DNA from: an uncultured Eubacteriales bacterium
GTDB taxonomy: Bacteria; Bacillota; Peptococcia; Peptococcales; SKKY01
NCBI GenBank assembly: GCA_964574445.1
Contig: CAZNNQ010000005.1
Span: 5,092 to 69,091, forward strand
Length of the DNA: 64,000 nucleotides
Reading direction: 5' to 3'
The notes beneath the pieces are model-generated. The model was not told the origin of the DNA, searched no databases, and was given only the letters and a program-made list of their open reading frames with translations. Position numbers and translations under genes: made by a program. Shown piece by piece: positions 24,522 to 50,463 of the stretch; the first letter of the stretch is position 1, and each line of letters begins with the position of its first letter.

Positions 24522-24550
24522 ATCAAAAAAATAAAAGGGTGGATGAATTA

Positions 24551-25108
24551 ATGATTTCAACAAGTGATTTTAAAACCGGACTTACAATTGAGATTGATGG
24601 TGATCCTTTTCAAGTTGTAGAGTTTCAACACGTAAAACCAGGTAAAGGTGCTGCTTTTGTAAGAGCTAAATTAAGAAATTTGAGATCTGGATCAACAACT
24701 GAAAAAACTTTTAGGGCAGGAGAAAAATTGCCTAAAGCACCAATTGAAAGAAAAGAGATGCAATATCTTTATAATGATGGTGAAAGTTATGTTTTCATGG
24801 ATAACGAGTCATATGAACAAATTAATGTATCCGAAGAAAAACTTGATGGTGCAGAGAAATTCTTAGTTGAAAATATGGATTGTTCTGTTGCATTCTATCA
24901 TGGAGAGATAATTGCTCTGGAAGTACCAAATACGGTAATACTTGAGGTTGTAGAAACAGAACCAGGTATAAAAGGAGACACAGCTTCAGGTGGCACAAAG
25001 CCGGCTAAACTTCAAACTGGTATTACAGTTCAAGTTCCCTTCTTTGTTAATGAGGGCGAAAAAATAAAAGTTGATACTCGCACAGGTTTTTATATTGAAA
25101 GAGCTTAG
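24551..25108 (+). CDS. efp: translation elongation factor P
   Basis: [17 protein letters not shown]...[19 protein letters not shown] 24551 lies 9 nt after GGGTGG and matches the canonical EF-P N-terminus. Confidence 0.95.
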
Positions 25109-25117
25109 GTAGTATAA

Positions 25118-25459
25118 ATGATTAATTCTATTACGGGAGAAAAAATTACCCAAAAAAGAATAATTAAGAGAACCATGGAGATACTTTTTTCAATAGATGG
25201 TGTTGAAGATACTGTTGGAAATCTTACAAATGATATTGTAAAGATATTTGGAAAAGATACTCAATTAAAAGGAGTTAATATTGAAGAAATCGGAGAAAGC
25301 GAGATTCGTCTTGAAATTTTTATAAAGACAAATATTGGCTATCCTATACCCAAAATTGCTCAAATGGCTCAAAGAAAGATTAAAGAAGAGATCGAAGATT
25401 ATTATAAGATAAAAGTTGCAAGTGTAGATGTAAATGTTATGGAAGTACAATTTGAATAA
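25118..25459 (+). CDS. Asp23/Gls24-family envelope stress protein
   Basis: 113 aa. The sequence and the position immediately before nusB match the conserved Firmicutes arrangement. Confidence 0.65.
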   Translation: MINSITGEKITQKRIIKRTMEILFSIDGVEDTVGNLTNDIVKIFGKDTQLKGVNIEEIGESEIRLEIFIKTNIGYPIPKIAQMAQRKIKEEIEDYYKIKVASVDVNVMEVQFE

Positions 25460-25494
25460 GCACAAATAGAGATAAATAATTATTAGCAAAATGT

Positions 25495-25520
25495 GCCCTT
25501 TTTAAAAAAGGGCTTTTTTT
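25495..25520 (+). terminator. intrinsic terminator
   Basis: GCCCTTTTT/AAAAAGGGC hairpin followed by T7. Confidence 0.7.
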
Positions 25521-25536
25521 CGATAGGAGTGAAATA

Positions 25537-25935
25537 GTGGTTAAGAGAGAAGCCAGGGAAAGAACCCTAGTTGCCTTATATCAGATGGATGTTATTGATG
25601 CCGAACCCATGGATGCATTAATGAAAAGATATGAATATGATGATGTGAAGCCTTTAAACTTGTCAATTGAACTTGTAAAAGGCATTATGGAGAATTTGAA
25701 GTTCATTGATGAATCGATAAAAAAATATTCTAAGGAATGGGATATTGGAAGATTCTCTAATATTGATAGAAATATTCTTAGAATTGCAATTTATGAAATT
25801 CACTTCATGGAAAAGATACCTTTTAAAGTAAGCATCAATGAAGCTGTTGAGTTGGCTAAACTATACAGTACCGAAGAGGCATATAAATTTATTAATGGGA
25901 TTCTAGCTCAGGTGATAAAGGAACTTGAAAATTAA
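25537..25935 (+). CDS. nusB: transcription antitermination factor NusB
   Basis: 132 aa. Contains REARERTLVALYQMD and INEAVELAKLY motifs. Confidence 0.9.
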   Translation: MVKREARERTLVALYQMDVIDAEPMDALMKRYEYDDVKPLNLSIELVKGIMENLKFIDESIKKYSKEWDIGRFSNIDRNILRIAIYEIHFMEKIPFKVSINEAVELAKLYSTEEAYKFINGILAQVIKELEN

Positions 25936-25949
25936 GGAGGAGAGTTATT

Positions 25950-26804
25950 TTGTATAAAGTACTCGAAAAGAAAGTATTAGCAGAAGGTCTTTATGAAATG
26001 AAAATAAGTGCCCCTGACTTTGCGAAAAAGGCCAAGGCAGGACATTTCCTGATTATTAAAGTTGCAGAAAAAGGAGAAAGAATACCACTAACAGTTGCTG
26101 ACTTTGATTCAGAAGAAGGAACAGTAACAATTGTCTTTGCAGCTATTGGTGTTTCCACTGAAAGAATAGCAGAATTAGAAGTTGGAGATGAAGTTATGGA
26201 CTTTACTGGTCCTCTAGGAGAACCAAGTGAAGTTGAAAACTTTGGAACGGTTGTTATGGTAGGAGGAGGAGTTGGAATAGCTCCAGTTTACCCTATCGCT
26301 AAAGCACTTAAAGAAGCCGGAAATAGAATTATAAGTATTATTGGTGCAAGAAACTCAGATCTTTTAATGTGGGAAGACAAAATGGGGGAAATCAGCGATG
26401 AGCTACACATCGCTACAGATGATGGTTCAAAAGGCAGAAAAGGTTTTGTTACAGATATATTAAATGAATTAATGGATAAAGAAAAAATAGATAGGGTTTG
26501 GGCAATTGGTCCAGTACCTATGATGAAAGCTGTAACTAATCTAACTAGAGATAAGATTAAAACTATTGTAAGCATGAACCCAATAATGGTTGACGGAACA
26601 GGGATGTGCGGAGCTTGCAGAGTTTCTGTTGGAAATGAAACAAAGTTTGCCTGTGTTGATGGTCCGGAATTTGACGGACATTTAGTAGATTTTGATCTTG
26701 CGGTAAGGAGACTTGCTTACTATAAAGATGAAGAAAAAACAGCACTTGAAATAAAACATCATGGACATAGTCATGGAGGTGGATGCAATTGTCAAAACAA
26801 ATAG
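25950..26804 (+). CDS. nfnA: ferredoxin-NADP+ reductase-like FAD/[2Fe-2S] subunit (NfnA / sulfide dehydrogenase subunit type)
   Basis: 284 aa. Contains RIPLTVADF and GGGVGIAP motifs, plus a C-terminal CGACRV...C cluster. It is paired with a GltD-like subunit. Confidence 0.8.
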   Translation: MYKVLEKKVLAEGLYEMKISAPDFAKKAKAGHFLIIKVAEKGERIPLTVADFDSEEGTVTIVFAAIGVSTERIAELEVGDEVMDFTGPLGEPSEVENFGTVVMVGGGVGIAPVYPIAKALKEAGNRIISIIGARNSDLLMWEDKMGEISDELHIATDDGSKGRKGFVTDILNELMDKEKIDRVWAIGPVPMMKAVTNLTRDKIKTIVSMNPIMVDGTGMCGACRVSVGNETKFACVDGPEFDGHLVDFDLAVRRLAYYKDEEKTALEIKHHGHSHGGGCNCQNK

Positions 26805-26818
26805 GTGAAAGACATGAA

Positions 26819-28186
26819 ATGCCTTTACAAGACCCGGAAATCAGAAGAACTAATTTTGATGAAGTTGCTCTTGGATATGATGATGAAGCTGCATTAGCTG
26901 AAGCCCAACGTTGTTTAAACTGTAAGGCTAGATTTTGTGTCAAAGGATGTCCTGTAGAAATAGATATTCCGGAATTTATCCAGGAAATTGTTAAAGGGAA
27001 TCTTCCTGAAGCATATAGAATATTAAAAAATAAAAATAATCTTCCTGCAGTTTGTGGAAGGGTTTGCCCACAAGAAGTTCAGTGTGAAGCAAGTTGTATT
27101 CTTCAAAAGAAAGGTGTTCCCATTGCAATTGGAAGACTTGAAAGATATGTAGCAGATTGGGCAAGAAAAAATGTAAAGGATGAGTTACCAGAAAATATGC
27201 CTCAAGGAGCTAAAGTTGCTGTAATTGGCGCTGGTCCTTCTGGTTTAACTTGTGCAGGAGACCTTGCAAAAATGGGGTATCAGGTAACAGTTTTTGAAGC
27301 ACTGCATACTCCAGGTGGAGTTTTGATGTATGGTATTCCGGAATTCAGACTTCCAAAAGAAATAGTTAGAAGAGAAATTGCTCAAATTGAAATGTCAGGG
27401 GTAACAATTAAGACAGGTAATGTAATTGGCAAATTATTTACAGTAGAAGAGTTACTAGAAAATGGTTTTGATGCAGTGTACATTTCTACGGGTGCTGGTT
27501 TACCATACTTTATGGATATACCAGGAGAAAATTTAAATGGTGTATATTCTGCAAATGAATTTTTAACTAGAACAAACTTAATGTGTGCCTATGAATTTCC
27601 AAATGCTTGTACTCCAATAAAAGTTGGTAAAAAAGTTGCGGTAGTTGGAGCAGGAAACGTAGCAATGGATGCTGCAAGAACAGCTTTAAGACTTGGAGCA
27701 GAAGAATCACATATTATTTATAGAAGATCTAGAAAAGAAATGCCAGCAAGGGTAGAAGAGTTAGAGCATGCTGAAGAAGAAGGGGTAATCTTCGATCTTC
27801 TTGTTAGCCCTATAGAAATTATTGGTGATGAAACTGGTAAAGTGTCAAAAATTAAATGTGTTCGTTATGAATTGGGAGAGCCAGATGCATCTGGAAGACA
27901 AACACCTATTGAAATACCTGGTTCAGAGTTTGAAATGGACGTAGATTCAGTTATTATGGCAATTGGACAGGGGCCTAACCCTCTCGTTACAAGAACAACC
28001 GAGGGCTTGGAATTGAATAAAAAAGGTACAATTAAAGCTTCAGAAGAAACAGGTGTTACATCAATTCCTGGAGTATTCGCTGGAGGAGATATTGTAACAG
28101 GAGCTGCAACAGTAATTCTTGCAATGGGAGCCGGTAAAAAAGCTGCTAGAGCTATTGATGAATATATAAAAAATAAGAAAAAGTAA
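26819..28186 (+). CDS. nfnB: NADPH-dependent glutamate synthase beta-chain-like oxidoreductase (NfnB)
   Basis: CLNCKARFCVKGCP, VAVIGAGPSGL and GGDIVTGAATVI motifs. I prefer ATG 26819, which lies after AGGTGA. Confidence 0.85.
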   Translation: MPLQDPEIRRTNFDEVALGYDDEAALAEAQRCLNCKARFCVKGCPVEIDIPEFIQEIVKGNLPEAYRILKNKNNLPAVCGRVCPQEVQCEASCILQKKGVPIAIGRLERYVADWARKNVKDELPENMPQGAKVAVIGAGPSGLTCAGDLAKMGYQVTVFEALHTPGGVLMYGIPEFRLPKEIVRREIAQIEMSGVTIKTGNVIGKLFTVEELLENGFDAVYISTGAGLPYFMDIPGENLNGVYSANEFLTRTNLMCAYEFPNACTPIKVGKKVAVVGAGNVAMDAARTALRLGAEESHIIYRRSRKEMPARVEELEHAEEEGVIFDLLVSPIEIIGDETGKVSKIKCVRYELGEPDASGRQTPIEIPGSEFEMDVDSVIMAIGQGPNPLVTRTTEGLELNKKGTIKASEETGVTSIPGVFAGGDIVTGAATVILAMGAGKKAARAIDEYIKNKKK

Positions 28187-28197
28187 GGTTAAATTTT

Positions 28198-29403
28198 ATG
28201 TCTGAACATATTTTTACTGTAAGAGAGATAAATCAATATATTAAAAACACACTAGAAAATGATCCCTTGTTGTCAAATTTTTGGCTCAAGGGTGAACTTT
28301 CAAATTTTTTAAGCCATTCTTCTGGGCATATGTATTTTACATTAAAGGATGAAACGGGAGCTATTAAATGTGTGATGTTTCGTTCAAGAACAAGTAGAGT
28401 TCGTTTTAGTCCTTCGAATGGCCAAAAAGTAATTGTTATGGGGTATATTTCTCTTTATGAAAAAGGAGGACAACATCAACTTTATGTTCAGGAAATGGTA
28501 GAAGATGGTATTGGAGATTTATATGAAAAATATGAAAAACTAAAGAAAAAATTGTCAGAGGAAGGTCTTTTTGCTGAGGAAAGAAAAAGGAACCTTCCTT
28601 TTTTTCCAAAAAGAGTTGGAATTGTAACATCACCTACAGGAGCAGCTGTTAGAGATATTATTACAGTAATACAGAGAAGGATGCCTAGTACGGAAATAAT
28701 TTTAGTACCAGCTTTGGTTCAGGGAACTGGATCTGCAGAATCGATAGTAGAAGGAATTAATAAAGTACTAAGATACAATCCGGAAATAATTATTACTGGT
28801 CGTGGTGGAGGATCTATAGAGGATTTGTGGGCATTTAACGAAGAAATCGTTGTAAGGAAAATTAGTGAGAGTCCCGTACCAGTTATTAGTGCTGTTGGTC
28901 ATGAAACAGACTTTACCCTTTCAGATTTTGCTGCTGATGTTAGGGCTGCCACTCCTTCAATTGCAGCAGAGCTGGCTGTTCCAAATAAAAAAGATCTAGA
29001 AGATATGCTTTGGCAAAAGGAAAGAAGACTTACAAAGAGTATGGAGAACTTTTTGGATGTTAAGAATAATATGTTAAAGGAAATTCTAAAAAGAAAAATT
29101 TTCCTATCTCCAGAAAGAATGTGGGAAAATAAAAATTTACAATTAGAGTATCTTAAAGAGAAATTAGTTCACAGACAGTTAAATTTATTAAAAGAGAAAA
29201 ATAGCCGCCTGGCAAATTCAGGGGAAAAAATAGATTTGTTAAGTCCTCTTAAAATCTTAGCTAGAGGATATTCTTTAACATTTACAGAAGATGGTACTTT
29301 AATAAAAAGTGCTGGTATTATAAAAAAAGAAGATAAGATAAAGGTAAAATTACATGAAGGAAATATTACTTGTAATGTATTAGAGGTGAATAAGGATGAG
29401 TAA
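28198..29403 (+). CDS. xseA: exodeoxyribonuclease VII large subunit
   Basis: 401 aa. OB-fold N-terminus (FWLKGELSNF) and GRGGGSIEDLWAFNEE motif. Confidence 0.95.
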   Translation: MSEHIFTVREINQYIKNTLENDPLLSNFWLKGELSNFLSHSSGHMYFTLKDETGAIKCVMFRSRTSRVRFSPSNGQKVIVMGYISLYEKGGQHQLYVQEMVEDGIGDLYEKYEKLKKKLSEEGLFAEERKRNLPFFPKRVGIVTSPTGAAVRDIITVIQRRMPSTEIILVPALVQGTGSAESIVEGINKVLRYNPEIIITGRGGGSIEDLWAFNEEIVVRKISESPVPVISAVGHETDFTLSDFAADVRAATPSIAAELAVPNKKDLEDMLWQKERRLTKSMENFLDVKNNMLKEILKRKIFLSPERMWENKNLQLEYLKEKLVHRQLNLLKEKNSRLANSGEKIDLLSPLKILARGYSLTFTEDGTLIKSAGIIKKEDKIKVKLHEGNITCNVLEVNKDE

Positions 29404-29617
29404 AAAAAATAGTTTTGAAGAGTCAATGGAAAACCTTGAAAAAATCATATCTCTTCTTGAACAAGGAGATGTAGACCTTGAAAAAAGTTTAGAATATTTT
29501 ACTCAAGGAATTGAGATGATTAAAAGTTGTAAAACTGAGTTAGTAAAAGCAGAAGAAAAGGTAAAAATACTTATAGAGGAAGAACTAGCAGACTTTTCCC
29601 AATTGAAAGGTGAGTAA
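29396..29617 (+). CDS. xseB: exodeoxyribonuclease VII small subunit
   Basis: 73 aa. FEESMENLEKIISLLEQGDVDLEKSL. It overlaps the xseA stop. Confidence 0.9.
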   Translation: MSKKNSFEESMENLEKIISLLEQGDVDLEKSLEYFTQGIEMIKSCKTELVKAEEKVKILIEEELADFSQLKGE

Positions 29618-29618
29618 A

Positions 29619-30518
29619 ATGGACTTTAAAAACCGTACAAAACAATATGCAGAAAATATTGATAAGAATTTGGATGTATTATTGGAATCTAAAGAACAAA
29701 TTCCTCAAATTATTCATGAAGCTATGCGCTATAGTGTTTTTGCAGGGGGCAAAAGGTTACGTCCAATTTTATCATTGGCCTCAAATGAAATTTTTGAAGG
29801 GTCATTCGAAAATACAATTAACACAGCTTGTGCTCTAGAGCTTATTCATACTTATTCACTTATTCACGACGATCATCCGGATTTAGATAATGATGATATG
29901 CGCAGAGGAATGGCAACTAATCACAAAGTCTATGGAAACGCTATGGCGATCCTGGCAGGAGATGCACTTCTTACACATGCTTTTCAAATATTATCTTATG
30001 ATGCAATGAAAGAACAAAATTCAGATACACTCAAAAGAAGGTTACAGTCAAACTTTGAAATAGCGCAAGCAATTGGAAGTAGAGGAATGATTGGCGGCCA
30101 AGTGGTTGATATTATCTCTGAAGGTAATAATGAAAAAGACTCTAATATACTTCGCTATATTCATACACATAAAACAGGAGACCTGATAAGAGCATCTGTA
30201 AGAAGTGGAGCTCTAATAGGTGGAGCTAATGATGAGGAGCTTTTTAACATTACTATATATGCCGAGAAAATTGGGATGGCTTTTCAAATAACAGATGATA
30301 TTCTTGATGTTACTGGTGACGAAAAATCCTTAGGAAAGAATATTGGAAGTGATGAGAAAAATGAAAAACTAACTTATCCAAGCATCTATGGTTTAGAAAA
30401 ATCAAAAAAAATGGCAGAAAAAGCAGTAAGTGATGCTTTGATGTTTTTAAAAAAGATAAACAAAAAAAGCACCTATCTTGAGGAACTTGCAGAATATATA
30501 TTAACAAGAAATAACTAA
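29619..30518 (+). CDS. ispA: (2E,6E)-farnesyl diphosphate synthase / polyprenyl synthetase
   Basis: LIHDDHPDLDNDDMRRG (first Asp-rich motif) and FQITDDILD (second). ATG 29619 lies 6 nt after AAGGTGA. Confidence 0.9.
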   Translation: MDFKNRTKQYAENIDKNLDVLLESKEQIPQIIHEAMRYSVFAGGKRLRPILSLASNEIFEGSFENTINTACALELIHTYSLIHDDHPDLDNDDMRRGMATNHKVYGNAMAILAGDALLTHAFQILSYDAMKEQNSDTLKRRLQSNFEIAQAIGSRGMIGGQVVDIISEGNNEKDSNILRYIHTHKTGDLIRASVRSGALIGGANDEELFNITIYAEKIGMAFQITDDILDVTGDEKSLGKNIGSDEKNEKLTYPSIYGLEKSKKMAEKAVSDALMFLKKINKKSTYLEELAEYILTRNN

Positions 30519-30521
30519 AAA

Positions 30522-30977
30522 ATGGTGATAAATTTGAAATTTACAGATTTACTAGACAATCACATAATTATTGTAACTATGGTTTCCTGGCTTCTTGCTC
30601 AAAGCATAAAGCTTATAATCGATAAAATAAAATATAGAGAAGTTGATTTTACCAGACTAGTTGGAGCAGGTGGAATGCCAAGCTCTCATTCGGCCTTTGT
30701 AACTTCTTTAGCTACTTCTATTGCTTTTCAGCACGGATTAAATTCTACGGAATTTGCATTAGCATTTTCATTAGCGTCGATTGTAATGTATGATGCTGCA
30801 GGAGTGAGACGTTCTGCTGGTAAGCAGGCACGGGTGCTAAACAAGATTGTTCATGATTTATATAGCAAGGAACATACAATAAAAAAAGAACGTCTTAAAG
30901 AACTAATAGGTCATTCCCCGGTAGAAGTTTTTGCCGGAGCTGTTCTTGGAATACTTGTTGCAATTTTTATGGCGTGA
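30522..30977 (+). CDS. divergent PAP2 / DUF212-family membrane protein
   Basis: 151 aa. Contains GGMPSSHSAFV and MYDAAGVRRSAGKQA motifs. Confidence 0.7.
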   Translation: MVINLKFTDLLDNHIIIVTMVSWLLAQSIKLIIDKIKYREVDFTRLVGAGGMPSSHSAFVTSLATSIAFQHGLNSTEFALAFSLASIVMYDAAGVRRSAGKQARVLNKIVHDLYSKEHTIKKERLKELIGHSPVEVFAGAVLGILVAIFMA

Positions 30978-30989
30978 TATTATTAAGAT

Positions 30990-31590
30990 GTAAGGACAGG
31001 TGGAGTATTATTCTAGTCGAATATCTACTTTCGAAGGCGGGCTTAAAAATCCGTTAAAGGGCACATCGATGAAGTTCCTGGTGGTGGCTTTGGACGCCCA
31101 GTCTGGGGTTGCTGCTGGGAGTTAAGATTGTAGGGCTACTTGCAATGGCATGCAGGGATGACCCTGCTTTCGTGGAGACCCAAGTGCGTGTATTGTACCA
31201 TCGTGTGCAGTGGATGGCTTGGGATTAAACCTGCATCCGGGGTAACTCGGGTGTAGCGTAGCCTACCTTGAGCGTTTTAAGCGGATAAGCAGTTAAGTGG
31301 GTGATGGATTGTGGCCACAGTTTGTTATTCATTGCTTTGAAACTTAATTAATGCAAAAGAGGCTAGAAAGTAGCTCTATTTGCCGGGGAAAACTCCTAGA
31401 GTATATACCGCAAGGTATGATCTTGCAGGGATTAAAGTGTGGTCTGAGTGGTGATCTAGTTCTGCTAATGGCGACATGCAGGGAAGGCTTTAAAAGGAAA
31501 CTGCCGGAAGGGCGACCAACGGTAGCCTTTTGGGAAAACCTACTAGACCTAAGCCACAATATTTATCTGTGAGATTTCCACCTGTCCATT
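30990..31590 (+). ncRNA. ole: OLE (ornate, large, extremophilic) RNA
   Basis: A roughly 630-nt gap with no credible ORF lies between ispA/DUF212 and a small membrane-protein gene followed by dxs, which is the canonical OLE context. G+C rises sharply: I counted 34/60 by hand for 31081-31140. The ends are complementary (GGACAGGTGGA 30994-31004 with TCCACCTGTCC 31577-31587). Internal helices include GCAGGG-atga-CCCTGC (31152-31167), CCCAAG/CTTGGG (31179-84 / 31218-23) and ATACC-GCAA-GGTAT (31405-31418). Confidence 0.8.
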
Positions 31591-31609
31591 TTATTTTGGA
31601 GTGAATTGA

Positions 31610-32149
31610 TTGGCTAAAAATAGAAGTAATGAGATATCAATAAAAAATGCACTTGCTATGGGGATCGGAACATTTTTTCTTTCCTTTATCCTGTCACTTG
31701 TTTCGGAAGTGTCATTCAGGGTGGTTCCTTTAACTGTAAGTATTTTATTGGTTTTAGTTGTAATTTTAATAGGAATTATGTTTGATATGGTTGGAATGGC
31801 AACTGTAACAGCTGATTTGAAAGTATTGCATGCCCGCGCATCTCAAAAAGTTCATGGTGCAAGAGTTGCCGTTGAATTAGTGAGAAATTCTGCTAGGGTT
31901 TCTTCGATATGCAATGATGTTGTCGGTGATATTTGCGGAACGTTGAGTGGTGCCTTAGGAGCTGCAATTGTTATTGAGGTATTAACTCAGAATCCTAATA
32001 TAAATGGCTTGATTTTAGGTGTGTCTGTAACAGCCATGGTAGCTTCTTTAACCGTAGGAGGGAAAGCCTACGCAAAAGGAGTAGCTATCAAAAATGGAAC
32101 GCCAATAATATTTTTTATTGGTAAACTGCTTAGTAAGGCCAAGCTATAG
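31610..32149 (+). CDS. oapA: OLE-associated protein A-like small membrane protein
   Basis: 179 aa with about 4 TM helices. It lies directly downstream of the OLE-like RNA and upstream of dxs. TTG start after GGAGTG. Confidence 0.7.
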   Translation: MAKNRSNEISIKNALAMGIGTFFLSFILSLVSEVSFRVVPLTVSILLVLVVILIGIMFDMVGMATVTADLKVLHARASQKVHGARVAVELVRNSARVSSICNDVVGDICGTLSGALGAAIVIEVLTQNPNINGLILGVSVTAMVASLTVGGKAYAKGVAIKNGTPIIFFIGKLLSKAKL

Positions 32150-32162
32150 TGAAGGTGGAAAA

Positions 32163-34088
32163 ATGAGTTTAATAAAAACTAATGAAAGAGTACTGAAGGA
32201 TGAAATAAAAAAATATAGTATAGATGAACTCACTAAGCTGTCAGGAGAAATCCGTGAACAGCTTATTGATGTTGTATCGGAAAATGGTGGACACTTAGCA
32301 TCCAATTTAGGTGTCGTTGAATTAACATTAGCTCTTCATTATGTTTTTAATTCTTCAAAAGATAAATTTATTTGGGATGTTGGGCATCAGGCTTATGTGC
32401 ATAAAATTTTGTCTGGAAGAAGAGAAGCACTAAGTACCATTAGAAAATATGGTGGTATTTCCGGGTTCCCTAAATGCAATGAAAGTATCGATGATTGCTT
32501 TGATGTTGGTCATAGTAGTACCTCAGTATCAGCAGCCTTAGGTCTTGCTAATGCAAGGGATTTAAAAGGAGAAAAACATTCGGTTTTGGCAATTATTGGA
32601 GATGGCGCTATGACCGGAGGGATGGCTTTCGAAGCTTTAAATCATGCTGGTCACTTACAGACAGACATGACAGTTATCCTAAATGATAATGAAATGTCCA
32701 TTAGCGGCAATGTAGGGGCAATGTCAACATATTTAAATAAAGTAAGATTAGACCCAAATTACACAAAAAGAAAACAATATATTGAAAACATCTTAAATAG
32801 AATTCCAAAGATAGGAAATAAAGTTGCCTGGACAGCAGAAAAGATAAAAGATACCGTGAAGTATTTAATGGTTCCAGGACAGTTATTTGAAGAATTAGGG
32901 TTTAGATATTTTGGTCCAGTTGATGGTCATAATCTTGAAGAGCTTATAGATGTTCTTAAAAAGATTCAAGAAATAAAAGGCCCAAAGATAGTTCATGTTA
33001 TAACTAAAAAAGGAAAAGGATATAAATACGCAGAAGACAATCCAGATAAATTTCATGGGATAGGTTCTTTTGATAAGGAAACAGGAGAAGTAAAAACCAA
33101 ATCAAAAAAAACCTCCTACACTAAGGCTTTCTCCAATGCACTTTTGGATATTGCAGAACAAGATGACAAAATTATTGCTATAACTGCAGCAATGGATAGT
33201 GGAACAGGAACGGACGTTTTTTCTCAAAAGTATCCTAAACGATTCTATGATGTAGGTATAGCTGAACAACACGCTGTAACTTTTGCAGCAGCATTAGCTC
33301 GTGGTGGTATGAAGCCGGTAGTAGCAATTTACAGCACTTTTTTACAAAGGGCTTATGATCAAATTGTTCACGATGTAGCTTTACAAAATGTTCCAGTAAT
33401 TTTTGCCTTGGATCGTGCAGGATTAGTAGGAGAAGATGGTCCTACCCACCATGGAGTTTTTGATATTTCATATTTGAGGCATATACCTAATATGGTGATT
33501 ATGGCACCTAAAGATGAAAAAGAGCTTGGGAACTTATTGTTTTCGGCGACAAAATATAATGTACCTTCTTCTATAAGATATCCAAGAGGAGAAGGTACGG
33601 GAGTTATAATTGATAGAGGGATTTTTGAGTATATAGAAAAAGGCCAAGGAGAACTCCTTAGTTCTGGTAGTGAGGTATTAATTATTGCAGTTGGAAGCAT
33701 GGTTGAAGAAGCAATAAAAGCTAAAGAGATCCTTGAGCGTTGTAATATTAGTACGGGTATAATTAATGCTCGTTTTATCAAACCAATTGATGAAAAACTT
33801 ATTATAGAAAATGCAAAAGACAAAAAAGTAATTGTTACTGTAGAAGAAAACGTTCTAAAGGGAGGTTTTTCTGAAGAAATCTCATCGATAATGGAAAAAA
33901 ACGGGATTATTAAACCTCTTTTAAGAATAGGAATTGAAGATGTTTTTGTAGAACATGGGCCACAAAATATTCTTCGAGAAAAGTGTGGACTAAGTGGTGA
34001 AAAAATTGCCCAAAGAGTGAAAGAAAGTCTGGTATCTACAGGATCATTTGCAAAAGTTTTAAATATGAACCGGAGAAAGTATCTATGA
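32163..34088 (+). CDS. dxs: 1-deoxy-D-xylulose-5-phosphate synthase
   Basis: GGHLASNLGVVELT, GHSSTSVSAALG and IIGDGAMTGGMAFEALN (ThDP) motifs. ATG 32163 lies after GAAGGTGG. Confidence 0.95.
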   Translation: MSLIKTNERVLKDEIKKYSIDELTKLSGEIREQLIDVVSENGGHLASNLGVVELTLALHYVFNSSKDKFIWDVGHQAYVHKILSGRREALSTIRKYGGISGFPKCNESIDDCFDVGHSSTSVSAALGLANARDLKGEKHSVLAIIGDGAMTGGMAFEALNHAGHLQTDMTVILNDNEMSISGNVGAMSTYLNKVRLDPNYTKRKQYIENILNRIPKIGNKVAWTAEKIKDTVKYLMVPGQLFEELGFRYFGPVDGHNLEELIDVLKKIQEIKGPKIVHVITKKGKGYKYAEDNPDKFHGIGSFDKETGEVKTKSKKTSYTKAFSNALLDIAEQDDKIIAITAAMDSGTGTDVFSQKYPKRFYDVGIAEQHAVTFAAALARGGMKPVVAIYSTFLQRAYDQIVHDVALQNVPVIFALDRAGLVGEDGPTHHGVFDISYLRHIPNMVIMAPKDEKELGNLLFSATKYNVPSSIRYPRGEGTGVIIDRGIFEYIEKGQGELLSSGSEVLIIAVGSMVEEAIKAKEILERCNISTGIINARFIKPIDEKLIIENAKDKKVIVTVEENVLKGGFSEEISSIMEKNGIIKPLLRIGIEDVFVEHGPQNILREKCGLSGEKIAQRVKESLVSTGSFAKVLNMNRRKYL

Positions 34089-34882
34089 AAATAAGAATTG
34101 ATAAACTTCTTTTTGAAAAAAACATTACAGAAAGTCGGGAAAGAGCAAAAGCACTTATAATGGCTGGAAAAATCTTGGTAAATAAAGAAAAAATTGATAA
34201 ACCAGGAACTTTAGTAGAAGAAGATGCAGAAATAGAAATAATAGGAGAAAAATTACAGTATGTAAGCAGAGGAGGCCTAAAACTTGAAAAAGCCCTTCAA
34301 GTTTTTCCAATATCGCTAGAAAAAAAAGTTGTACTAGATATTGGAGCATCCACAGGAGGATTTACAGACTGTGCTCTTCAGAATGGTGCAAGTAAAGTTT
34401 ATGCTGTTGATGTTGGTTATGGGCAACTCGATTGGAAGCTTAGAAATGATAGTAGAGTAATTACCATGGAAAGAACTAATGCTAGGTATCTAGAAAAGGA
34501 ATCTTTTCCGGAACCTTTGGATTTTGTTACAACAGATGTGGCCTTTATTTCTCTTACAAAGATTCTTCCAGCAATAAAAAAAGTTTTAAAAAGTGATCTT
34601 GGAGAAGCTGTTGTATTAATCAAACCACAATTTGAAGCAGGTAGAGAAAAAGTTGGGAAAAAAGGTGTTGTTAAAGACCCGGAAGTTCATAAAGAAGTAA
34701 TTGATAAAATTATTAATTTTTCAATACAAGAAGGTTTCATTATAAAAGGATTAACATCTTCGCCTATTAAAGGACCTGAAGGAAATATAGAATATTTATT
34801 GTGGATAGCCCGATCTGAAAACGAAAATGAAAATATAGAATATGACATTAACAAAATTGTAGAGGAAGCCTTTAGGGGATGA
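34085..34882 (+). CDS. tlyA: TlyA-family rRNA 2'-O-methyltransferase
   Basis: S4-like N-terminus (RIDKLLFEKNITESRERAK) and FtsJ fold (LDIGASTGGFTD). Confidence 0.9.
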   Translation: MKIRIDKLLFEKNITESRERAKALIMAGKILVNKEKIDKPGTLVEEDAEIEIIGEKLQYVSRGGLKLEKALQVFPISLEKKVVLDIGASTGGFTDCALQNGASKVYAVDVGYGQLDWKLRNDSRVITMERTNARYLEKESFPEPLDFVTTDVAFISLTKILPAIKKVLKSDLGEAVVLIKPQFEAGREKVGKKGVVKDPEVHKEVIDKIINFSIQEGFIIKGLTSSPIKGPEGNIEYLLWIARSENENENIEYDINKIVEEAFRG

Positions 34883-34886
34883 TTAT

Positions 34887-35387
34887 TTGGTAAAAAGCGA
34901 TTATCTAATATTTGGCTTTATCTTAGGTATACTAGTGCTTTCTTATATTATAAAAGCTCTAGACAGTTACAAAAAGAAAAAAACATATTATAAAGCTAAA
35001 GCAGCAGAAAAAAAAGCAATGGATTTACTTGAAGTTCAAGGATATAGGGTTATAGAAGTTCAACCTAGACGCAATATAACTTATAATTTAAATGGACAAA
35101 AAAAGAGGGCTTATGTAAAAGCTGATTTTTTAGTCCGGAGGAACTTTAAAAAAATAATTTGTGAAGTTAAAACGGGAGAAAAAACCCGAATCACTCAAGC
35201 AATAATAAGAAGACAATTATTTGATTATTATTATGCCTATGGTGTTAGTGAAGTAATTCTGATAGATATGGAAAAAAATAGAATTGATAGAATAACTTTT
35301 AATGATAAAAGAAACTGGACCAGATATGGGCTGTTTTTTTTAACTTTGTTAGGGATATTTTATTTTTGTTTTGAATATATAAGATGA
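34887..35387 (+). CDS. hypothetical protein: PD-(D/E)xK-like core flanked by N- and C-terminal TM helices
   Basis: 166 aa. TM helices at both ends (LIFGFILGILVLSYII and YGLFFLTLLGIFYFCF). The central segment KADFLV...ICEVKTGEK resembles a D...ExK nuclease motif. Confidence 0.45.
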   Translation: MVKSDYLIFGFILGILVLSYIIKALDSYKKKKTYYKAKAAEKKAMDLLEVQGYRVIEVQPRRNITYNLNGQKKRAYVKADFLVRRNFKKIICEVKTGEKTRITQAIIRRQLFDYYYAYGVSEVILIDMEKNRIDRITFNDKRNWTRYGLFFLTLLGIFYFCFEYIR

Positions 35388-35400
35388 AAGAAGGCTTGGA

Positions 35401-36246
35401 ATGAATATTAAAAAAATTGGAATAATTATGAACTATGACAAAAAAGATACTGCTGAGCTTTCAAAAAAACTTGTAGATTATTTAATGGAAAATGGAATAG
35501 AAGTGTTTTCTCTTAAAGAAGAGTGTGAAGTTATAGAAGATCTTCAAGAATTACCAAAAAAAGAGTTTAATGAAATTATTGAATTTTTAATAGTTATTGG
35601 TGGAGATGGGACGTTTCTTCGAGGATCAAGACAAATTTTTGGGTATGATATCCCTATCCTCGGGGTTAACATGGGAAAACTTGGCTTTTTAACAGAGGTT
35701 GAAAAGGATAATGTATTCGAAGCTTTAAATGAAGTAATTAAAGGAAATTATTTCATAGAGAATAGAATGCTTCTTGCCGCAGATGTAATTAGAAAGAATG
35801 ATGTTATTGCATCCTTTACAGCATTAAATGATTTTGTAATTAATAAAGGTGCATTTTCAAGATTAATTGGAATTTCTATGAATATAGGGGGGGAATATTT
35901 TAGAGAATATTCATCCGATGGTGTAATTGTCGCAACCCCAACTGGTTCAACAGCTTATTCATTGTCTGCAGGAGGGCCAATAGTTTATCCAGGATTAGAC
36001 GTTAGTATAATCACACCTATTTGTCCACACTCATTGAGCGCTAGACCTATGGTTATACCACCAGATAAGGATGTGAAAATTACTTTATGTTCATCTAGAA
36101 TGGAAGCTATGCTTACTATTGATGGACAAAATGCTTTTGAACTCGAAAATGGAGATAAAATAATTATAAAGAAATCTAAGAGTAATCTAAATTTTGTTAA
36201 ATTTTCAAAAGAAGGATTTTTTGGAAGAATTAGAGATAAATTTTAG
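35401..36246 (+). CDS. nadK: NAD+ kinase
   Basis: GGDGTFLR, NDFVI and ATPTGSTAYSLSAGGPIV motifs. Confidence 0.95.
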   Translation: MNIKKIGIIMNYDKKDTAELSKKLVDYLMENGIEVFSLKEECEVIEDLQELPKKEFNEIIEFLIVIGGDGTFLRGSRQIFGYDIPILGVNMGKLGFLTEVEKDNVFEALNEVIKGNYFIENRMLLAADVIRKNDVIASFTALNDFVINKGAFSRLIGISMNIGGEYFREYSSDGVIVATPTGSTAYSLSAGGPIVYPGLDVSIITPICPHSLSARPMVIPPDKDVKITLCSSRMEAMLTIDGQNAFELENGDKIIIKKSKSNLNFVKFSKEGFFGRIRDKF

Positions 36247-36257
36247 GGGTAATTATT

Positions 36258-36830
36258 TTGAAAATGCAAAGTATATTTACAAATCTTAATGGTTTAAATA
36301 AAAAATTACTAACAGAGATAATTAAAAATGGAGATACTGTTATTGATGCAACCCTTGGCAATGGCTGGGATGCAGTCTACTTGGCTAAACTTGTAGGTCC
36401 TGAAGGAAAGGTTTTTGGGTTTGATATCCAGGAAGAGGCTGTAACAAGATCATCTGAAAGAATGAAAAAGGAAGGTATCTCAAATTACAATTTTTTAGTA
36501 GAAAGTCATTCGGAAATGGATTCATATGTAAAAGAAGCTTCGGCTATTGTATTTAATCTAGGATATCTTCCTGGTGGATCAAAGGAAATTAGAACAGACA
36601 GTATTACAACACTCGAGGCAATAAAGAAAGCTTTAAAAATTCTTAAAAGTCCTGGGATTATTGGGATAATGTTTTACACAGGACATCCTGGTGGGAAAGA
36701 AGAAAAAGATATTGTCATCCCTTTCCTTGAAGATCTAAACAAAAGAAAATATGATGTATTGAAGGTCGAACATATTAACGGAAAAGACACTGCACCTTTT
36801 TTAATACTAATATACAAAAAAGGGGAATAA
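36258..36830 (+). CDS. class I SAM-dependent methyltransferase, YtqB/MnmM-like
   Basis: 190 aa. Contains DATLGNGWDAVYLAKLVGPEGKVFGFDIQEEAV and FNLGYLPGG motifs. Confidence 0.7.
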   Translation: MKMQSIFTNLNGLNKKLLTEIIKNGDTVIDATLGNGWDAVYLAKLVGPEGKVFGFDIQEEAVTRSSERMKKEGISNYNFLVESHSEMDSYVKEASAIVFNLGYLPGGSKEIRTDSITTLEAIKKALKILKSPGIIGIMFYTGHPGGKEEKDIVIPFLEDLNKRKYDVLKVEHINGKDTAPFLILIYKKGE

Positions 36831-36834
36831 GATT

Positions 36835-37284
36835 ATGAAAAGTATAAGGCAGAAAAAGATTTTAAATCTAATCGAGAATCAAATTGTTTCTACTCAAAAA
36901 GATCTTGCAGATGCATTAATTGAATCAGGCTTCGAAGTGACTCAGGCCACGGTTTCAAGAGATATAAAAGAGCTAAATTTAATTAAAATTTCAGTTGGGG
37001 ATAATTTGTACCGTTATGCAGCCCCCCAAGAGGCTATAGTAGTATCTGAGAAAAAGTTTGAATTTGTTCTTAAGGAATTTGTACTTGATGTGGACTATAG
37101 CGAAAATATAATAGTTGTTAAAACTGCACCTGCAAATGCAAATGTTGTTGCTTATGCTTTGGATAATTTTACTTGGAAAGAAGTTATAGGGACTGTAGCT
37201 GGTGATGATACTATTTTGCTTGTAGTGAAATCCAGAAATGCTGTTGAAAGAATAGTAAAAAAGATTAGAGAATATATTGAATAA
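36835..37284 (+). CDS. argR: arginine repressor
   Basis: 149 aa. Contains QATVSRDIKEL (wHTH) and GTVAGDDTILLV (Arg-binding) segments. Confidence 0.9.
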   Translation: MKSIRQKKILNLIENQIVSTQKDLADALIESGFEVTQATVSRDIKELNLIKISVGDNLYRYAAPQEAIVVSEKKFEFVLKEFVLDVDYSENIIVVKTAPANANVVAYALDNFTWKEVIGTVAGDDTILLVVKSRNAVERIVKKIREYIE

Positions 37285-37305
37285 TAATTAACAGGGGGCA
37301 TTAGT

Positions 37306-38958
37306 GTGCTTAAGTTGTTAAGAATTTCAAACTATGCATTAATAGATAATTTAGAACTTGAATTTTCCCCTGGCTTAAATGTTCTTTCCGGAGAAACAGG
37401 AGCAGGGAAGTCTATTTTAGTTGGTGCAATTTCACTCCTTATGGGTGGTAGAAGCCAGGGAGAATACATAAGAAATAAAGATCAAAAAACATGGGTGGAA
37501 GGTTGTTTTGATTTTGAATTTTCAAGGGATTTAAATATTATGGCTGAGGAAGCAGGAATTCCTTTGGAAGAAGATTTCCTGGTTATCAGAAGAGAAATTA
37601 GTTCAAATGGAAAAAGTCTAGCGAGAATTAATGGTGTTATTGTACAAATTGGGTTTTTAAAAATTTTTGCATCAAAATTTATTAATATATATGGTCAACA
37701 TGATTTTCAAATTTTAAGTGATCCATCTAATCATTTGGGAATTTTGGATAATGCAGGGAAAAAAGAAGTCATACACCTTAAAGGGGAAGTAAAAAAAGCA
37801 TATTTAAAATATTCTGAAAGAAAAAAGAAGGCAGAAGAATTAAAGCATAAAATTTTTACTGAGGAACAAAAGAAAGAATTTCTTTTGTTCCAATTTGAAG
37901 AGTTGGAGAAAATTGCAATAACAAGTTCTGAAGAAGATAATGATATTGACCAAGAATTATTATTACTTGAAAATCAAGAAAAAATAAGCAATTTAACTTA
38001 TAATGCATCAGAAAATTTGTATGGACAAGGATCTGCTTACGAAAAAATTGGTGAAGCATTAATAAGTATATCAGAACTTTCGAATTTTATTTCAGATGTT
38101 AAAACAACTGAAGAAAGACTAAATAACATATATTATGAATTAGAAGATATTGCTTTAGATTTAAAAAAATATATTAAAGAAGAAGATTTTGATCAAAATA
38201 GATTAGATTTTTTAAACGAAAGAAAATTTAATTTACAAAAGATAAAAAAGAAGTACAATCTAAATCTTTCAGAATTAATTTTAAAAAAGAAAGAGATAGA
38301 GGAAGAATTGGAGTTGTTAAGTAATACGGCTTTTTATCTTGAACAAGGGGAGAAAGAATTAAAAGAATCTTTAAAAGACTATAATGAAAAAGCTGAAAAC
38401 CTATCTATTTTAAGAATGAAAACAGCTCGGAAGTTAGAAGAAGATATAAAAAAAGAATTGTCCTGGCTTGGGATGAATAATGTAATCTTTAAAACTGTAT
38501 TTGAAAAAGATAATCCTGGCCCCCTTGGGAATGATAAAGTGGAATTTCTCATATCAGCTAACTTAGGTGAAGAACCTAAACCGATTGCTAAAATCGCATC
38601 TGGTGGTGAGATGTCAAGAATAATGCTTTCTCTAAAAGTCATTATAACTGAGGATGGAGTAAGTACAATGATTTTTGATGAAGTTGATTCGGGAATTGGT
38701 GGGGAGACTATTCTTAAGGTTGGCGAGAAACTTAAAGAGGTTGCGAAGAAAAAACAAGTGTTATGTGTAACACATTCCCCCCAAATGGCAGCCTTAGCTC
38801 GGACGCATTTTTTAATAAGTAAAATAGAAGTTGAAAATAAAACTCAAACAACTGTTAAAGAATTAGATAAAGAGGAGAGAATTGAAGAAATTAGTAGAAT
38901 GTTAGGGAAACGTGATGCAGCCGGTAAAGAGTTTGCAATAAAACTATTAAATACTTGA
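37306..38958 (+). CDS. recN: DNA repair protein RecN
   Basis: Walker A GETGAGKS, a long coiled coil, SGGEMSRIML signature and FDEVDSGIGG motif. Confidence 0.95.
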   Translation: MLKLLRISNYALIDNLELEFSPGLNVLSGETGAGKSILVGAISLLMGGRSQGEYIRNKDQKTWVEGCFDFEFSRDLNIMAEEAGIPLEEDFLVIRREISSNGKSLARINGVIVQIGFLKIFASKFINIYGQHDFQILSDPSNHLGILDNAGKKEVIHLKGEVKKAYLKYSERKKKAEELKHKIFTEEQKKEFLLFQFEELEKIAITSSEEDNDIDQELLLLENQEKISNLTYNASENLYGQGSAYEKIGEALISISELSNFISDVKTTEERLNNIYYELEDIALDLKKYIKEEDFDQNRLDFLNERKFNLQKIKKKYNLNLSELILKKKEIEEELELLSNTAFYLEQGEKELKESLKDYNEKAENLSILRMKTARKLEEDIKKELSWLGMNNVIFKTVFEKDNPGPLGNDKVEFLISANLGEEPKPIAKIASGGEMSRIMLSLKVIITEDGVSTMIFDEVDSGIGGETILKVGEKLKEVAKKKQVLCVTHSPQMAALARTHFLISKIEVENKTQTTVKELDKEERIEEISRMLGKRDAAGKEFAIKLLNT

Positions 38959-39015
38959 TGGATAAGGGCTTTTGTGGTATCATGTAGTGTGTTAAATGAG
39001 ATAGAATTTTTGCAG

Positions 39016-39050
39016 AGAGTGGGTTTACGCCCACTCTTTCCTATTATTTT
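39016..39050 (+). terminator. intrinsic terminator after recN
   Basis: AGAGTGGG-tttacg-CCCACTCT hairpin followed by a T-rich tail. Confidence 0.7.
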
Positions 39051-40649: not shown

Positions 40650-40893
40650 AAGAATGTGTGTTTCTTGTAGAGAAATGTTTGAAAAAAAAGCTCTAAGAAG
40701 AATAGTTAGAACACCAGAAGGTGAAATAGTGTATGATCCTACTGGAAAAAAATCAGGTAAAGGTGCATATATATGTACAAATCCGGATTGTTTTGCCAAA
40801 ATAAAAAAGGGCAAAATTCTTGAAAAAACCTTTAAAATGGAGGTTCCTAAGGATATTTATAATGAATTGGAGGAAATTTTAAAGGATGAATAA
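40630..40893 (+). CDS. ylxR: YlxR-family (DUF448) RNA-binding protein
   Basis: PKRMCVSCREMFEKKALRRIV and GKGAYIC motifs. ATG 40630 overlaps the nusA stop. Confidence 0.85.
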   Translation: MMKKTPKRMCVSCREMFEKKALRRIVRTPEGEIVYDPTGKKSGKGAYICTNPDCFAKIKKGKILEKTFKMEVPKDIYNELEEILKDE

Positions 40894-50442: not shown

Positions 50443-50463
50443 AATATTTTGGAGGTGAAATTT

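What the first reader, a model, noticed from the sequence alone, without database searches (positions are those of the whole stretch)
30990..32149. OLE-class large structured RNA plus oapA embedded in the ispA-dxs isoprenoid/DNA-repair operon
A roughly 600-nt stretch without a credible ORF is far more GC-rich than its flanks.

Sequence observations:
- An 11-nt complementarity closes its two ends (30994-31004 with 31577-31587).
- It contains several clean local helices, two of them with GNRA or tetraloop caps.
- It sits exactly where OLE RNAs are found: after xseAB-ispA, immediately before a ~180-aa four-TM protein (OapA), and then dxs-tlyA-nadK-argR-recN.

OLE is a known class (Breaker laboratory, 2006). 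It is restricted to anaerobic or extremophilic Firmicutes and forms a membrane-associated RNP whose biochemical function is still unresolved. It is therefore not new as a class, but it is the most remarkable element in the window. This locus also carries extra neighbours: DUF212 upstream, and a TM-flanked PD-(D/E)xK ORF and an MnmM-like methyltransferase downstream.
Basis: partly seen in the sequence, partly recalled or inferred. Interest (0 to 1): 0.7.

Follow-up and report, generated by a model that had tools for sequence, protein, structure and literature searches.

The report
Canonical OLE RNA with oapA gene

Summary
The observation and the interpretation both hold. Rfam's OLE model (RF01071) matches window 30984-31597 (+) end to end at 476.6 bits (threshold 50, E 9e-137). 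The segment has 46% GC against 33% for the window, and no other 614-nt stretch reaches that. The 11-nt terminal complementarity is exact. It is the published P1 stem, and it covaries across 97 OLE RNAs. The 179-aa ORF at 31610-32149 is OapA. A homologue follows OLE in 97 of 99 other genomes. It has the invariant DxxxD motif and four long helices. Its similarity to the CNNM family is below threshold, and its nearest solved fold is the Mg2+ transporter CorB. The gene order is xseA-xseB-ispA-DUF212-OLE-oapA-dxs-tlyA-orf166-nadK-mnmM-argR-recN, ending in a terminator. An extended -10 box (TGATATTAT, 30975-30983) sits just upstream, as in 76 of 97 species. Nothing departs from the known class, so I rate it already known, with low interest. 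The most useful by-product is orf166. It belongs to an unannotated family (about 1,290 cluster representatives) of small N-terminally anchored proteins with a nuclease-like motif. A family member follows tlyA in 12 of the sampled OLE clusters.

The parts
30975..30983 (+). Extended -10 promoter-like box TGATATTAT (TG + TATTAT). The TG overlaps the DUF212 stop codon. The predicted start is about 30990, just before P1.
   Evidence: Read. TGnTAnnnT occurs upstream of P1 in 76 of 97 OLE loci, against about 6 in shuffles. A proximal ole promoter is experimentally shown in B. halodurans (PMC3413148). Activity here is inferred.
30984..31597 (+). OLE RNA gene (full-length type)
   Evidence: RF01071 at 476.6 bits, E 9.4e-137, model 1-616/616. 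228 of 249 highly conserved consensus positions match. Fold z-score -5.4. Covariation.
30994..31004 (+). P1 stem, 5' strand (GGACAGGTGGA)
   Evidence: Perfect 11-nt complement of 31577-31587. Helix 1: the inner 8 pairs are 80-100% paired, with GC/AU/UA/CG swaps. The five outer pairs all differ on both sides from relative L106 and still pair.
31577..31587 (+). P1 stem, 3' strand (TCCACCTGTCC), followed by a U-rich tail
31462..31481 (+). P13 hairpin with a GCGA (GNRA) tetraloop at 31471-31474 and a 5'-side bulge. This is the counterpart of the OapB binding site.
   Evidence: Rfam alignment. The OapB site is defined in PMC7936274. By the model alignment the bulge here is 2 nt (UA), against 1 nt in B. 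halodurans.
31503..31523 (+). P14.1 hairpin with a GCGA tetraloop at 31512-31515 (the weak secondary OapB site in B. halodurans)
   Evidence: PMC7936274
31598..31601 (+). Ribosome-binding site GGAG for oapA, 8 nt before the TTG start
   Evidence: Read. Close homologues (P0001-P0006) are also 179 aa with 100% coverage.
31610..32149 (+). oapA (179 aa): OLE-associated membrane protein with DxxxD at D103-D107
28198..30518 (+). xseA (28198-29403), xseB (29396-29617) and ispA (29610-30518): the usual upstream neighbours
   Evidence: Pfam hits. The same order occurs in most sampled loci.
30522..30977 (+). DUF212 (divergent PAP2 family) gene inserted between ispA and OLE
   Evidence: PF02681 at 173.6 bits. 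The same position is occupied in 15 of 91 loci.
32118..34882 (+). dxs (ORF from 32118; the likely start is the ATG at 32163, after GAAGGTGGA) and tlyA-type FtsJ/S4 methyltransferase (34085-34882)
   Evidence: start read
34887..35387 (+). orf166: an unannotated small protein with an N-terminal (and here also a C-terminal) hydrophobic segment and an E41...D80...E93-x-K95 motif
   Evidence: The AlphaFold2 model is low-confidence.
35401..38958 (+). nadK (35401-36246), mnmM (36258-36830), argR (36835-37284), recN (37306-38958)
39014..39039 (+). Intrinsic-terminator-like hairpin (11-bp stem plus T-run) that closes the gene cluster

Best explanation
This is a genuine, full-length ole-oapA locus of a low-GC anaerobic or extremophilic Bacillota (class Clostridia). 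The closest sampled relative is a soda-lake-sediment MAG.

Shown here:
- A 614-nt segment matches the OLE family in sequence and secondary structure.
- It is closed by the P1 stem.
- It keeps the GNRA-capped P13 and P14.1 hairpins.
- It is followed 12 nt later by oapA, which has its own ribosome-binding site.

Inferred from the extended -10 box and from B. halodurans data: the RNA is made both from its own promoter just upstream of P1 and by read-through from xseAB-ispA-DUF212, and it accumulates as a stable RNA of about 600 nt.

Inferred from published work on the class, not tested here:
- OLE dimerises.
- OapA tethers it to the membrane. OapA is a CNNM/CorB-like four-helix protein that binds near P2 and P4a.
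- OapB binds at P13, and a YbxF-type L7Ae protein (OapC) or bS21 binds at a k-turn near P5/P6.
- The resulting particle helps the cell cope with alcohol, cold, excess Mg2+ and poor carbon sources.
- The most likely mechanism is that the RNA acts as a regulatory scaffold. In this view it supplies to the minimal OapA transporter-like core what the cytoplasmic CBS and CorC domains supply in MpfA-type Mg2+ transporters.
For: RNA:
- RF01071 hit at 476.6 bits, full length.
- 92% of the highly conserved consensus positions are kept.
- Family-wide covariation, including P1.
- Within the lineage, 18 pairs changed on both sides and still pair, and none changed on both sides and broke.
- Fold z = -5.4.

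OapA:
- Syntenic homologue in 97 of 99 loci.
- DxxxD invariant.
- CNNM hit at 21.6 bits, below the 28.4 cut-off, exactly as published for OapA (PMC11332333).
- AlphaFold2 model with pLDDT 85.4 and four long helices.
- Top PDB folds are MtCorB 7m1t/7m1u and the CorC TM domain.

Other:
- Promoter box conserved in 76 of 97 loci and validated in B. halodurans.
- Gene context.
- Relatives L106, L121, L122 and L042 all carry OLE at 464-534 bits.
Against: - Nothing contradicts membership.
- No expression, processing or localisation data exist for this organism.
- oapB and the ybxF-type oapC were not found in the 64-kb window, and the rest of the genome is not available.
- The P13 bulge appears to be 2 nt rather than the single nucleotide required by B. 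halodurans OapB.
- The Foldseek E-values to CorB are marginal (3.7e-3), although probability is 1.00.
- The biochemical function of the whole class is unresolved in the literature, so the mechanistic part is inherited inference.
Confidence: 0.97

Rival explanations
1. The structured segment acts mainly in cis, as a long 5' leader that controls translation or stability of the oapA-dxs mRNA, rather than as a separate stable RNA.
For: Only 12 nt separate the OLE 3' end from the oapA start, and the RBS directly abuts the U-rich tail. No terminator-like site lies between OLE and oapA. Some OLE is co-transcribed with its neighbours in B. halodurans.
Against: In B. halodurans a single stable product with a half-life of about 3 h is seen, and the RNA acts in trans within an RNP (PMC3413148). 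The conservation pattern is that of the trans-acting family. dxs follows OLE-oapA in most loci but not all; in L042, tlyA follows oapA.
Confidence: 0.05
2. The element is a decaying relic that is no longer functional.
For: 9 of 157 model pairs are non-canonical in the window, and 21 of 249 highly conserved positions differ.
Against: The bit score is typical of the family (464-534 bits in relatives). Substitutions relative to close relatives preserve pairing: 18 double changes all keep the pair. oapA is intact with all invariant residues. The promoter box is retained.
Confidence: 0.01
3. It is a chance GC-rich region or a different RNA class (riboswitch, intron, rRNA fragment).
For: None beyond the GC bias itself.
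Against: E = 9.4e-137 for OLE, with no competing Rfam family at the site. The only other hit in the window is a lysine riboswitch at 50200-50376.
Confidence: 0.005

Closest known systems
OLE RNA (Rfam RF01071), characterised in Halalkalibacterium (Bacillus) halodurans and Clostridium acetobutylicum
   Same: Length of about 600 nt, the full set of model helices, the P1 closure, the conserved sequence blocks, GNRA-capped P13 and P14.1, a proximal extended -10 promoter, oapA immediately downstream, and the xseAB-ispA / dxs-tlyA-argR-recN neighbourhood.
   Different: Only details differ. DUF212 is inserted between ispA and ole, as in 15 of 91 loci. orf166 and mnmM are inserted downstream. P13 has an apparent 2-nt bulge. 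The hairpin that carries long insertions in Paenibacillus is in its short form here.
OapA (OLE-associated protein A, B. halodurans)
   Same: About 180 aa with four long hydrophobic helices, an invariant DxxxD, sub-threshold CNNM similarity and a position directly after ole.
   Different: No direct comparison with the B. halodurans protein sequence was possible. RNA binding was not tested.
MpfA / CorB / CorC (CNNM-family Mg2+ transporters)
   Same: Nearest solved fold of the transmembrane core (7m1t, 7m1u, 7cfg; TM-score about 0.5, probability 1.00). Weak PF01595 hit.
   Different: OapA lacks the CBS and CorC domains, has a fourth TM helix and carries DxxxD, which CNNM domains lack (PMC11332333). 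It scores below the Pfam threshold.
Other large ornate bacterial RNAs (ROOL, GOLLD, raiA motif)
   Same: They are large, highly structured non-coding RNAs, and ROOL and GOLLD, like OLE, form RNA-only multimers (PMC12286853).
   Different: There is no sequence or structural-model match. Only OLE hits here.

Membership tests
OLE RNA (RF01071) | Score at or above the curated gathering threshold, over the full-length covariance model | tested here: met
   476.6 bits against 50; model 1-616/616; not truncated
OLE RNA (RF01071) | About 25% of nucleotides highly conserved across the class | tested here: met
   228 of 249 upper-case consensus positions are identical in the window
OLE RNA (RF01071) | Ornate multi-helix secondary structure supported by covariation | tested here: met
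   On a sequence-only alignment of 97 OLEs, 83.3% of cells pair against 39-45% when slid, covariation score 0.423 against 0.188, 0 of 500 shuffles reach it. 148 of 157 model pairs are canonical in the window.
OLE RNA (RF01071) | P1 stem joining the 5' and 3' ends (in the published model, absent from Rfam's consensus structure) | tested here: met
   11/11 complementarity; covaries (helix 1); P1 is named in PMC3413148
OLE RNA (RF01071) | P13 hairpin with GNRA loop and bulge (OapB site) | tested here: met
   GCGA loop at 31471-31474 with a 5'-side bulge. The bulge appears to be 2 nt rather than 1 nt. OapB binding was not tested.
OLE RNA (RF01071) | oapA immediately downstream | tested here: met
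OLE RNA (RF01071) | Host is a Bacillota anaerobe or extremophile | tested here: inconclusive
   The window's source is not given. The closest OLE and OapA come from a Clostridia MAG from soda-lake sediment (L106) and from unnamed MAG or metagenome contigs. The gene order is typical of Firmicutes.
OLE RNA (RF01071) | Abundant, stable, membrane-localised RNA of about 600 nt in an RNP with OapA, OapB and OapC | not testable with these tools
   Needs expression and biochemical data. No oapB or ybxF-type oapC lies in the 64-kb window.
OapA | Conserved DxxxD motif | tested here: met
   D103-V-V-G-D107. Both D residues are invariant in 44 diverse homologues, and the motif is present in 98 of 98 OLE-adjacent proteins.
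OapA | Four transmembrane helices in a protein of about 180-230 aa | tested here: met
   AlphaFold2 helices at 11-38, 41-67, 94-127 and 133-161 (pLDDT 85.4); hydropathy
OapA | Distant CNNM relationship: scores below true CNNM/MpfA proteins, fold nearest to CorB | tested here: met
   PF01595 at 21.6 bits, below the 28.4 cut-off. Top folds are 7m1t and 7m1u. Matches PMC11332333.
OapA | Binds OLE RNA cooperatively and localises it to the membrane | not testable with these tools
   Biochemical property (Block et al. 2011, as cited in PMC12265935)
CNNM / MpfA Mg2+ transporters (considered for the 179-aa ORF) | Pfam CNNM domain above threshold, plus CBS pair and CorC domains | tested here: not met
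   Below threshold, with no CBS or CorC domain; the protein ends at 179 aa
PD-(D/E)xK nuclease superfamily (considered for orf166) | Conserved E...D...(E/Q)xK residues on an alpha-beta-beta-beta-alpha-beta core | tested here: inconclusive
   E41, D80, E93 and K95 are invariant. 7 of 12 members hit UPF0102 at sub-threshold level, best E 0.009. The predicted secondary-structure order is compatible, but the model has pLDDT 54.9. No significant PDB or Pfam hit.

The most novel reading that the evidence does not exclude
The extra genes within or beside the ole cluster may be functional accessories of the OLE particle rather than passengers. They are DUF212, a PAP2-like putative lipid-phosphate phosphatase found directly upstream of ole in 15 of 91 loci, and the unannotated orf166 family, an N-terminally anchored protein with a PD-(D/E)xK-like motif found directly after tlyA in 12 sampled clusters from both Bacilli and Clostridia. 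For example, they could link the particle to isoprenoid-lipid carrier turnover, or could trim the RNA ends at the membrane.
Probability: 0.08. Interest if true: 0.5.

Novelty: already known. Interest (0 to 1): 0.15.

Why it matters
OLE is one of the largest structured bacterial RNAs whose biochemical function is still unresolved, so each correctly annotated locus helps comparative work. This one adds a typical member from a soda-lake-type Clostridia lineage and shows that the first-stage reader can recognise the class from raw sequence. It does not open a new question. Two practical by-products follow. First, Rfam's consensus structure omits the P1 stem even though P1 covaries clearly. Second, a widespread small protein family recurs after tlyA in OLE gene clusters and has no family annotation.

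Tried and rejected
- A PDB sequence search with OapA found nothing, and NCBIfam has no model for OapA, DUF212 or orf166. OapA membership was therefore tested by synteny, motif and fold instead.
- Public sources name none of the listed OapA homologues 'OapA' (5,932 found, best 120 listed). The labels are 'hypothetical', 'CNNM domain-containing', 'CorB' or 'hemolysin-like'.
- The 2006 discovery paper and the 2011 OapA paper are not held. The P1 and promoter facts were taken from PMC3413148 instead.
- My first regex for the -10 box picked the wrong hexamer and was replaced.
- The orf166 AlphaFold2 model was too poor (pLDDT 54.9) to justify a fold search, so none was run. Profile searches against PDB gave only noise (bS20 and a two-pore channel).
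- The L7Ae-family ORF at 40886-41185 was considered as OapC and rejected. It sits in the nusA-ylxR-(L7Ae)-infB context, which is the YlxQ type, not YbxF.
- I did not map the k-turn residue by residue, because I could not do so reliably from the text available.
- The 19-nt core used to fetch the loci is invariant in alignment A1 by construction, so it is not counted as evidence of conservation.

Full report
**Observation**

The Rfam scan of the whole window gives two hits at gathering threshold. One is OLE (RF01071) at 30984-31597 on the + strand. It scores 476.6 bits against a threshold of 50, with E 9.4e-137. It covers model positions 1-616 of 616 and is not truncated. The other is a lysine riboswitch at 50200-50376.

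The OLE segment has 46.3% GC in a window that averages 32.9%. No other 614-nt stretch of the window reaches that value; the maximum elsewhere is 42.5%. Only two short chance ORFs of 71 and 73 aa lie inside it.

The claimed 11-nt complementarity is exact: GGACAGGTGGA at 30994-31004 against TCCACCTGTCC at 31577-31587. An unconstrained thermodynamic fold of the 614 nt also forms this closing helix. That fold is 5.4 standard deviations more stable than dinucleotide shuffles.

Two GCGA tetraloops cap hairpins at 31471-31474 and 31512-31515.

**Identity of the RNA**

Beyond the bit score, 228 of the 249 highly conserved (upper-case) consensus positions are identical in the window, and 148 of 157 model base pairs are canonical.

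To test the structure independently of the Rfam alignment, I fetched 120 loci from species-representative genomes with a 19-nt OLE core pattern. I then aligned 96 complete OLE regions with the window by MAFFT, using sequence only (alignment A1). Projecting the Rfam pairs plus the terminal helix onto A1 gives these results:

| Measure | Observed | Control |
|---|---|---|
| Cells forming a standard pair | 83.3% | 39-45% with 3' partners slid by 1-3 columns |
| Pairs with changes on both sides | 138 of 168 | 0 of 500 column shuffles reach the observed value |
| Covariation score | 0.423 | 0.188 in shuffles |

The low-scoring helices are the variable-length hairpins that MAFFT aligns poorly.

The terminal helix (helix 1) has a near-invariant GG/CC core. 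The flanking pairs swap among GC, AU, UA and CG, and the inner 8 pairs are 80-100% paired. This helix is absent from Rfam's consensus structure. It is nevertheless the 'P1 stem' of the published model. Wallace et al. [quoted passage not shown]

Within the window's own lineage the constraint is also visible. Against L106 (85% identity in this pairwise alignment), 18 pairs changed on both sides and all still pair. Another 15 changed on one side and still pair, and 6 broke. The five outer P1 pairs are all replaced on both sides and still pair: GGACA/TGTCC becomes AGGTG/CACCT.

Relatives L106, L121, L122 and L042 carry full-length OLE at 464-534 bits, so the window's score is typical. The RNA is the 'full-length' type rather than one of the reduced variants described by Fernando and Breaker.

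**Promoter and transcript ends**

Directly upstream lies TGATATTAT at 30975-30983. This is an extended -10 element whose TG overlaps the stop codon of the preceding gene. The pattern TGnTAnnnT occurs in the 45 nt or less upstream of P1 in 76 of 97 loci, against about 6 in shuffles. It usually lies 12-16 nt before the well-paired part of P1, and TATAAT is the hexamer in 53 of those loci.

A proximal promoter at this position raises OLE expression more than 100-fold in B. halodurans. Use of the promoter in this organism is inferred, not shown.

No terminator-like site separates OLE from oapA. The next convincing one is at 39014-39039, after recN.

**The downstream protein**

The ORF at 31610-32149 has a TTG start, with GGAG 8 nt upstream, and encodes 179 aa. 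The evidence that it is OapA:

- **Family libraries.** It has no NCBIfam model. Its only Pfam hit is CNNM at 21.6 bits, below the 28.4 cut-off. The literature reports exactly this behaviour for OapA, which forms the next-best cluster below MpfA in CNNM searches (PMC11332333).
- **Synteny.** In 97 of 99 fetched loci with enough downstream sequence, the ORF that follows OLE is homologous to it, with E from 1e-27 to 1e-73. The two exceptions carry non-Bacillota labels (Streptomyces, candidate division TA06).
- **Motif.** The OapA-specific DxxxD motif is D103-VVG-D107. It lies in the most conserved block (NDVxGD). It is present in 98 of 98 of these proteins, and both D residues are invariant in 44 diverse database homologues.
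- **Fold.** An AlphaFold2 model (pLDDT 85.4, pTM 0.74) has four long helices plus short connectors. Its best PDB matches are the archaeal CNNM MtCorB (7m1t, 7m1u; probability 1.00, TM-score about 0.5, E 4e-3) and the bacterial CorC TM domain. This is the same nearest fold reported for H. halodurans OapA.
- **Public naming.** 5,932 homologues exist, and none of the 120 listed is named OapA. The best is 94% identical, so this exact genome is not in the collection.

**Context**

All genes from at least 23412 to 38958 are on the + strand. The order is:

| Gene | Coordinates |
|---|---|
| M24 peptidase | 23412-24521 |
| efp | 24539-25108 |
| Asp23/YqhY-type | 25118-25459 |
| nusB | 25537-25935 |
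| NfnAB-like oxidoreductase pair | 25950-28186 |
| xseA | 28198-29403 |
| xseB | 29396-29617 |
| ispA | 29610-30518 |
| DUF212 | 30522-30977 |
| OLE | 30984-31597 |
| oapA | 31610-32149 |
| dxs | 32118-34088 |
| tlyA | 34085-34882 |
| orf166 | 34887-35387 |
| nadK | 35401-36246 |
| mnmM | 36258-36830 |
| argR | 36835-37284 |
| recN | 37306-38958 |
| terminator | 39014-39039 |

After the terminator come rimP, nusA, ylxR, an L7Ae-family gene and infB.

Among 91 loci with at least 1.6 kb upstream, the gene immediately before OLE is ispA in 69 and DUF212 in 15. The latter are clostridial genera such as Alkaliphilus, Caloramator and Marinisporobacter. mnmM at this position occurs only in the window's own lineage (L106 and L122). 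The three closest relatives share the window's gene order as far as their contigs extend.

Neither an OapB-like protein nor a YbxF-type OapC is encoded in the window. The L7Ae gene at 40886-41185 is in the YlxQ context.

**How it most likely works**

The sequence-level anatomy described above is shown. The promoter use is inferred.

The following is inherited from published work on the class. OLE forms an RNA dimer, and OapA tethers it to the membrane. OapB binds P13. OapC or bS21 binds alternative k-turns near P5/P6. Loss of the particle sensitises cells to alcohols, cold, excess Mg2+ and poor carbon sources. MpfA-type Mg2+ transporters anticorrelate with OLE and may be all-protein equivalents.

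The mechanism I consider most likely is that the RNA is a regulatory scaffold for a minimal CNNM-like membrane protein. This is unproven for the whole class.

**Comparison and novelty**

Every defining feature that could be tested was met. The untested ones need experiments or the rest of the genome.

The class has more than 2,800 known representatives, and a standard Rfam scan finds this one. I therefore rate it as already known and of low interest.

**Side result**

orf166 has no family or PDB match. It does have the invariant pattern E41...D80...E93-x-K95, behind a conserved N-terminal hydrophobic segment. Seven of 12 members give sub-threshold hits to UPF0102/YraN.

An exhaustive profile search finds 1,290 cluster representatives at E <= 1e-3 and 709 at E <= 1e-10, mostly about 170 aa. 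Ten that I sampled have no Pfam family above threshold.

A profile built from them finds a family member in 12 of the sampled OLE clusters. It lies directly after tlyA in 11 of them. In the twelfth (L089) the nearest recognised gene to its left was dxs. The hosts are Alicyclobacillus, Paenibacillus, Laceyella, Marininema, Tepidanaerobacter and the window's lineage.

The structure model is too weak (pLDDT 54.9) to confirm the nuclease fold. Whether the family is tied to OLE or simply to the dxs-tlyA-recN cluster was not tested.

Noticed in passing
window 34887-35387 (+); also L106, L042, L009, L070, L024, L115, L078, L046, L108, L112, L089, L119: orf166 belongs to an unannotated family (1,290 cluster representatives at E<=1e-3) of proteins of about 170 aa. 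They have an N-terminal hydrophobic segment and invariant E...D...ExK residues. Only sub-threshold similarity to UPF0102/YraN was found. A family member sits directly after tlyA in 11 of these 12 sampled OLE clusters (in L089 the nearest recognised gene to its left was dxs).
   Followed up: partly
window 30522-30977 (+): A DUF212 (divergent PAP2) gene lies between ispA and OLE. The same insertion is present in 15 of 91 sampled loci, all clostridial-type. No held paper mentions OLE RNA together with DUF212, YuiD or PAP2.
   Followed up: partly
alignment A1 columns 45-55 / 844-854 (window 30994-31004 / 31577-31587): Rfam's OLE consensus structure does not include the P1 stem, although P1 covaries clearly across 97 sequences. 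The family model could be improved.
   Followed up: yes
window 50200-50376 (+): Lysine riboswitch (RF00168, 120.2 bits) upstream of the ORFs that start at 50449.
   Followed up: no
window 40886-41185 (+): L7Ae-family protein in the nusA-ylxR-L7Ae-infB arrangement (YlxQ type). This is a k-turn-binding paralogue of OapC/YbxF but not in the YbxF context.
   Followed up: partly
window 25118-25459 (+), 36835-37284 (+), 47502-49619 (+): Three genes that the OLE literature flags are nearby. An Asp23/YqhY-type gene is listed among high-ranking ole neighbours. argR and the 705-aa ORF after rpsO (presumably pnp, not scanned here) are named as candidate OLE partners in PMC12265935.
   Followed up: no
window 36258-36830 (+); L106, L122: An MnmM (tRNA U34 methyltransferase) equivalog lies between nadK and argR only in the window's own lineage among the sampled loci.
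   Followed up: partly
L079, L100, L034, L118: The OLE core pattern occurs in assemblies labelled Succinivibrio, Pseudomonas, Streptomyces and candidate division TA06. L079 and L100 carry a complete OLE plus oapA. L034 and L118 lack an oapA homologue. Contamination or transfer is likely, as the literature notes for non-Bacillota hits.
   Followed up: no
window 31462-31481 (+): By the covariance-model alignment, the P13 hairpin has a 2-nt (UA) bulge. The B. halodurans OapB site requires a precisely placed single-nucleotide bulge.
   Followed up: no
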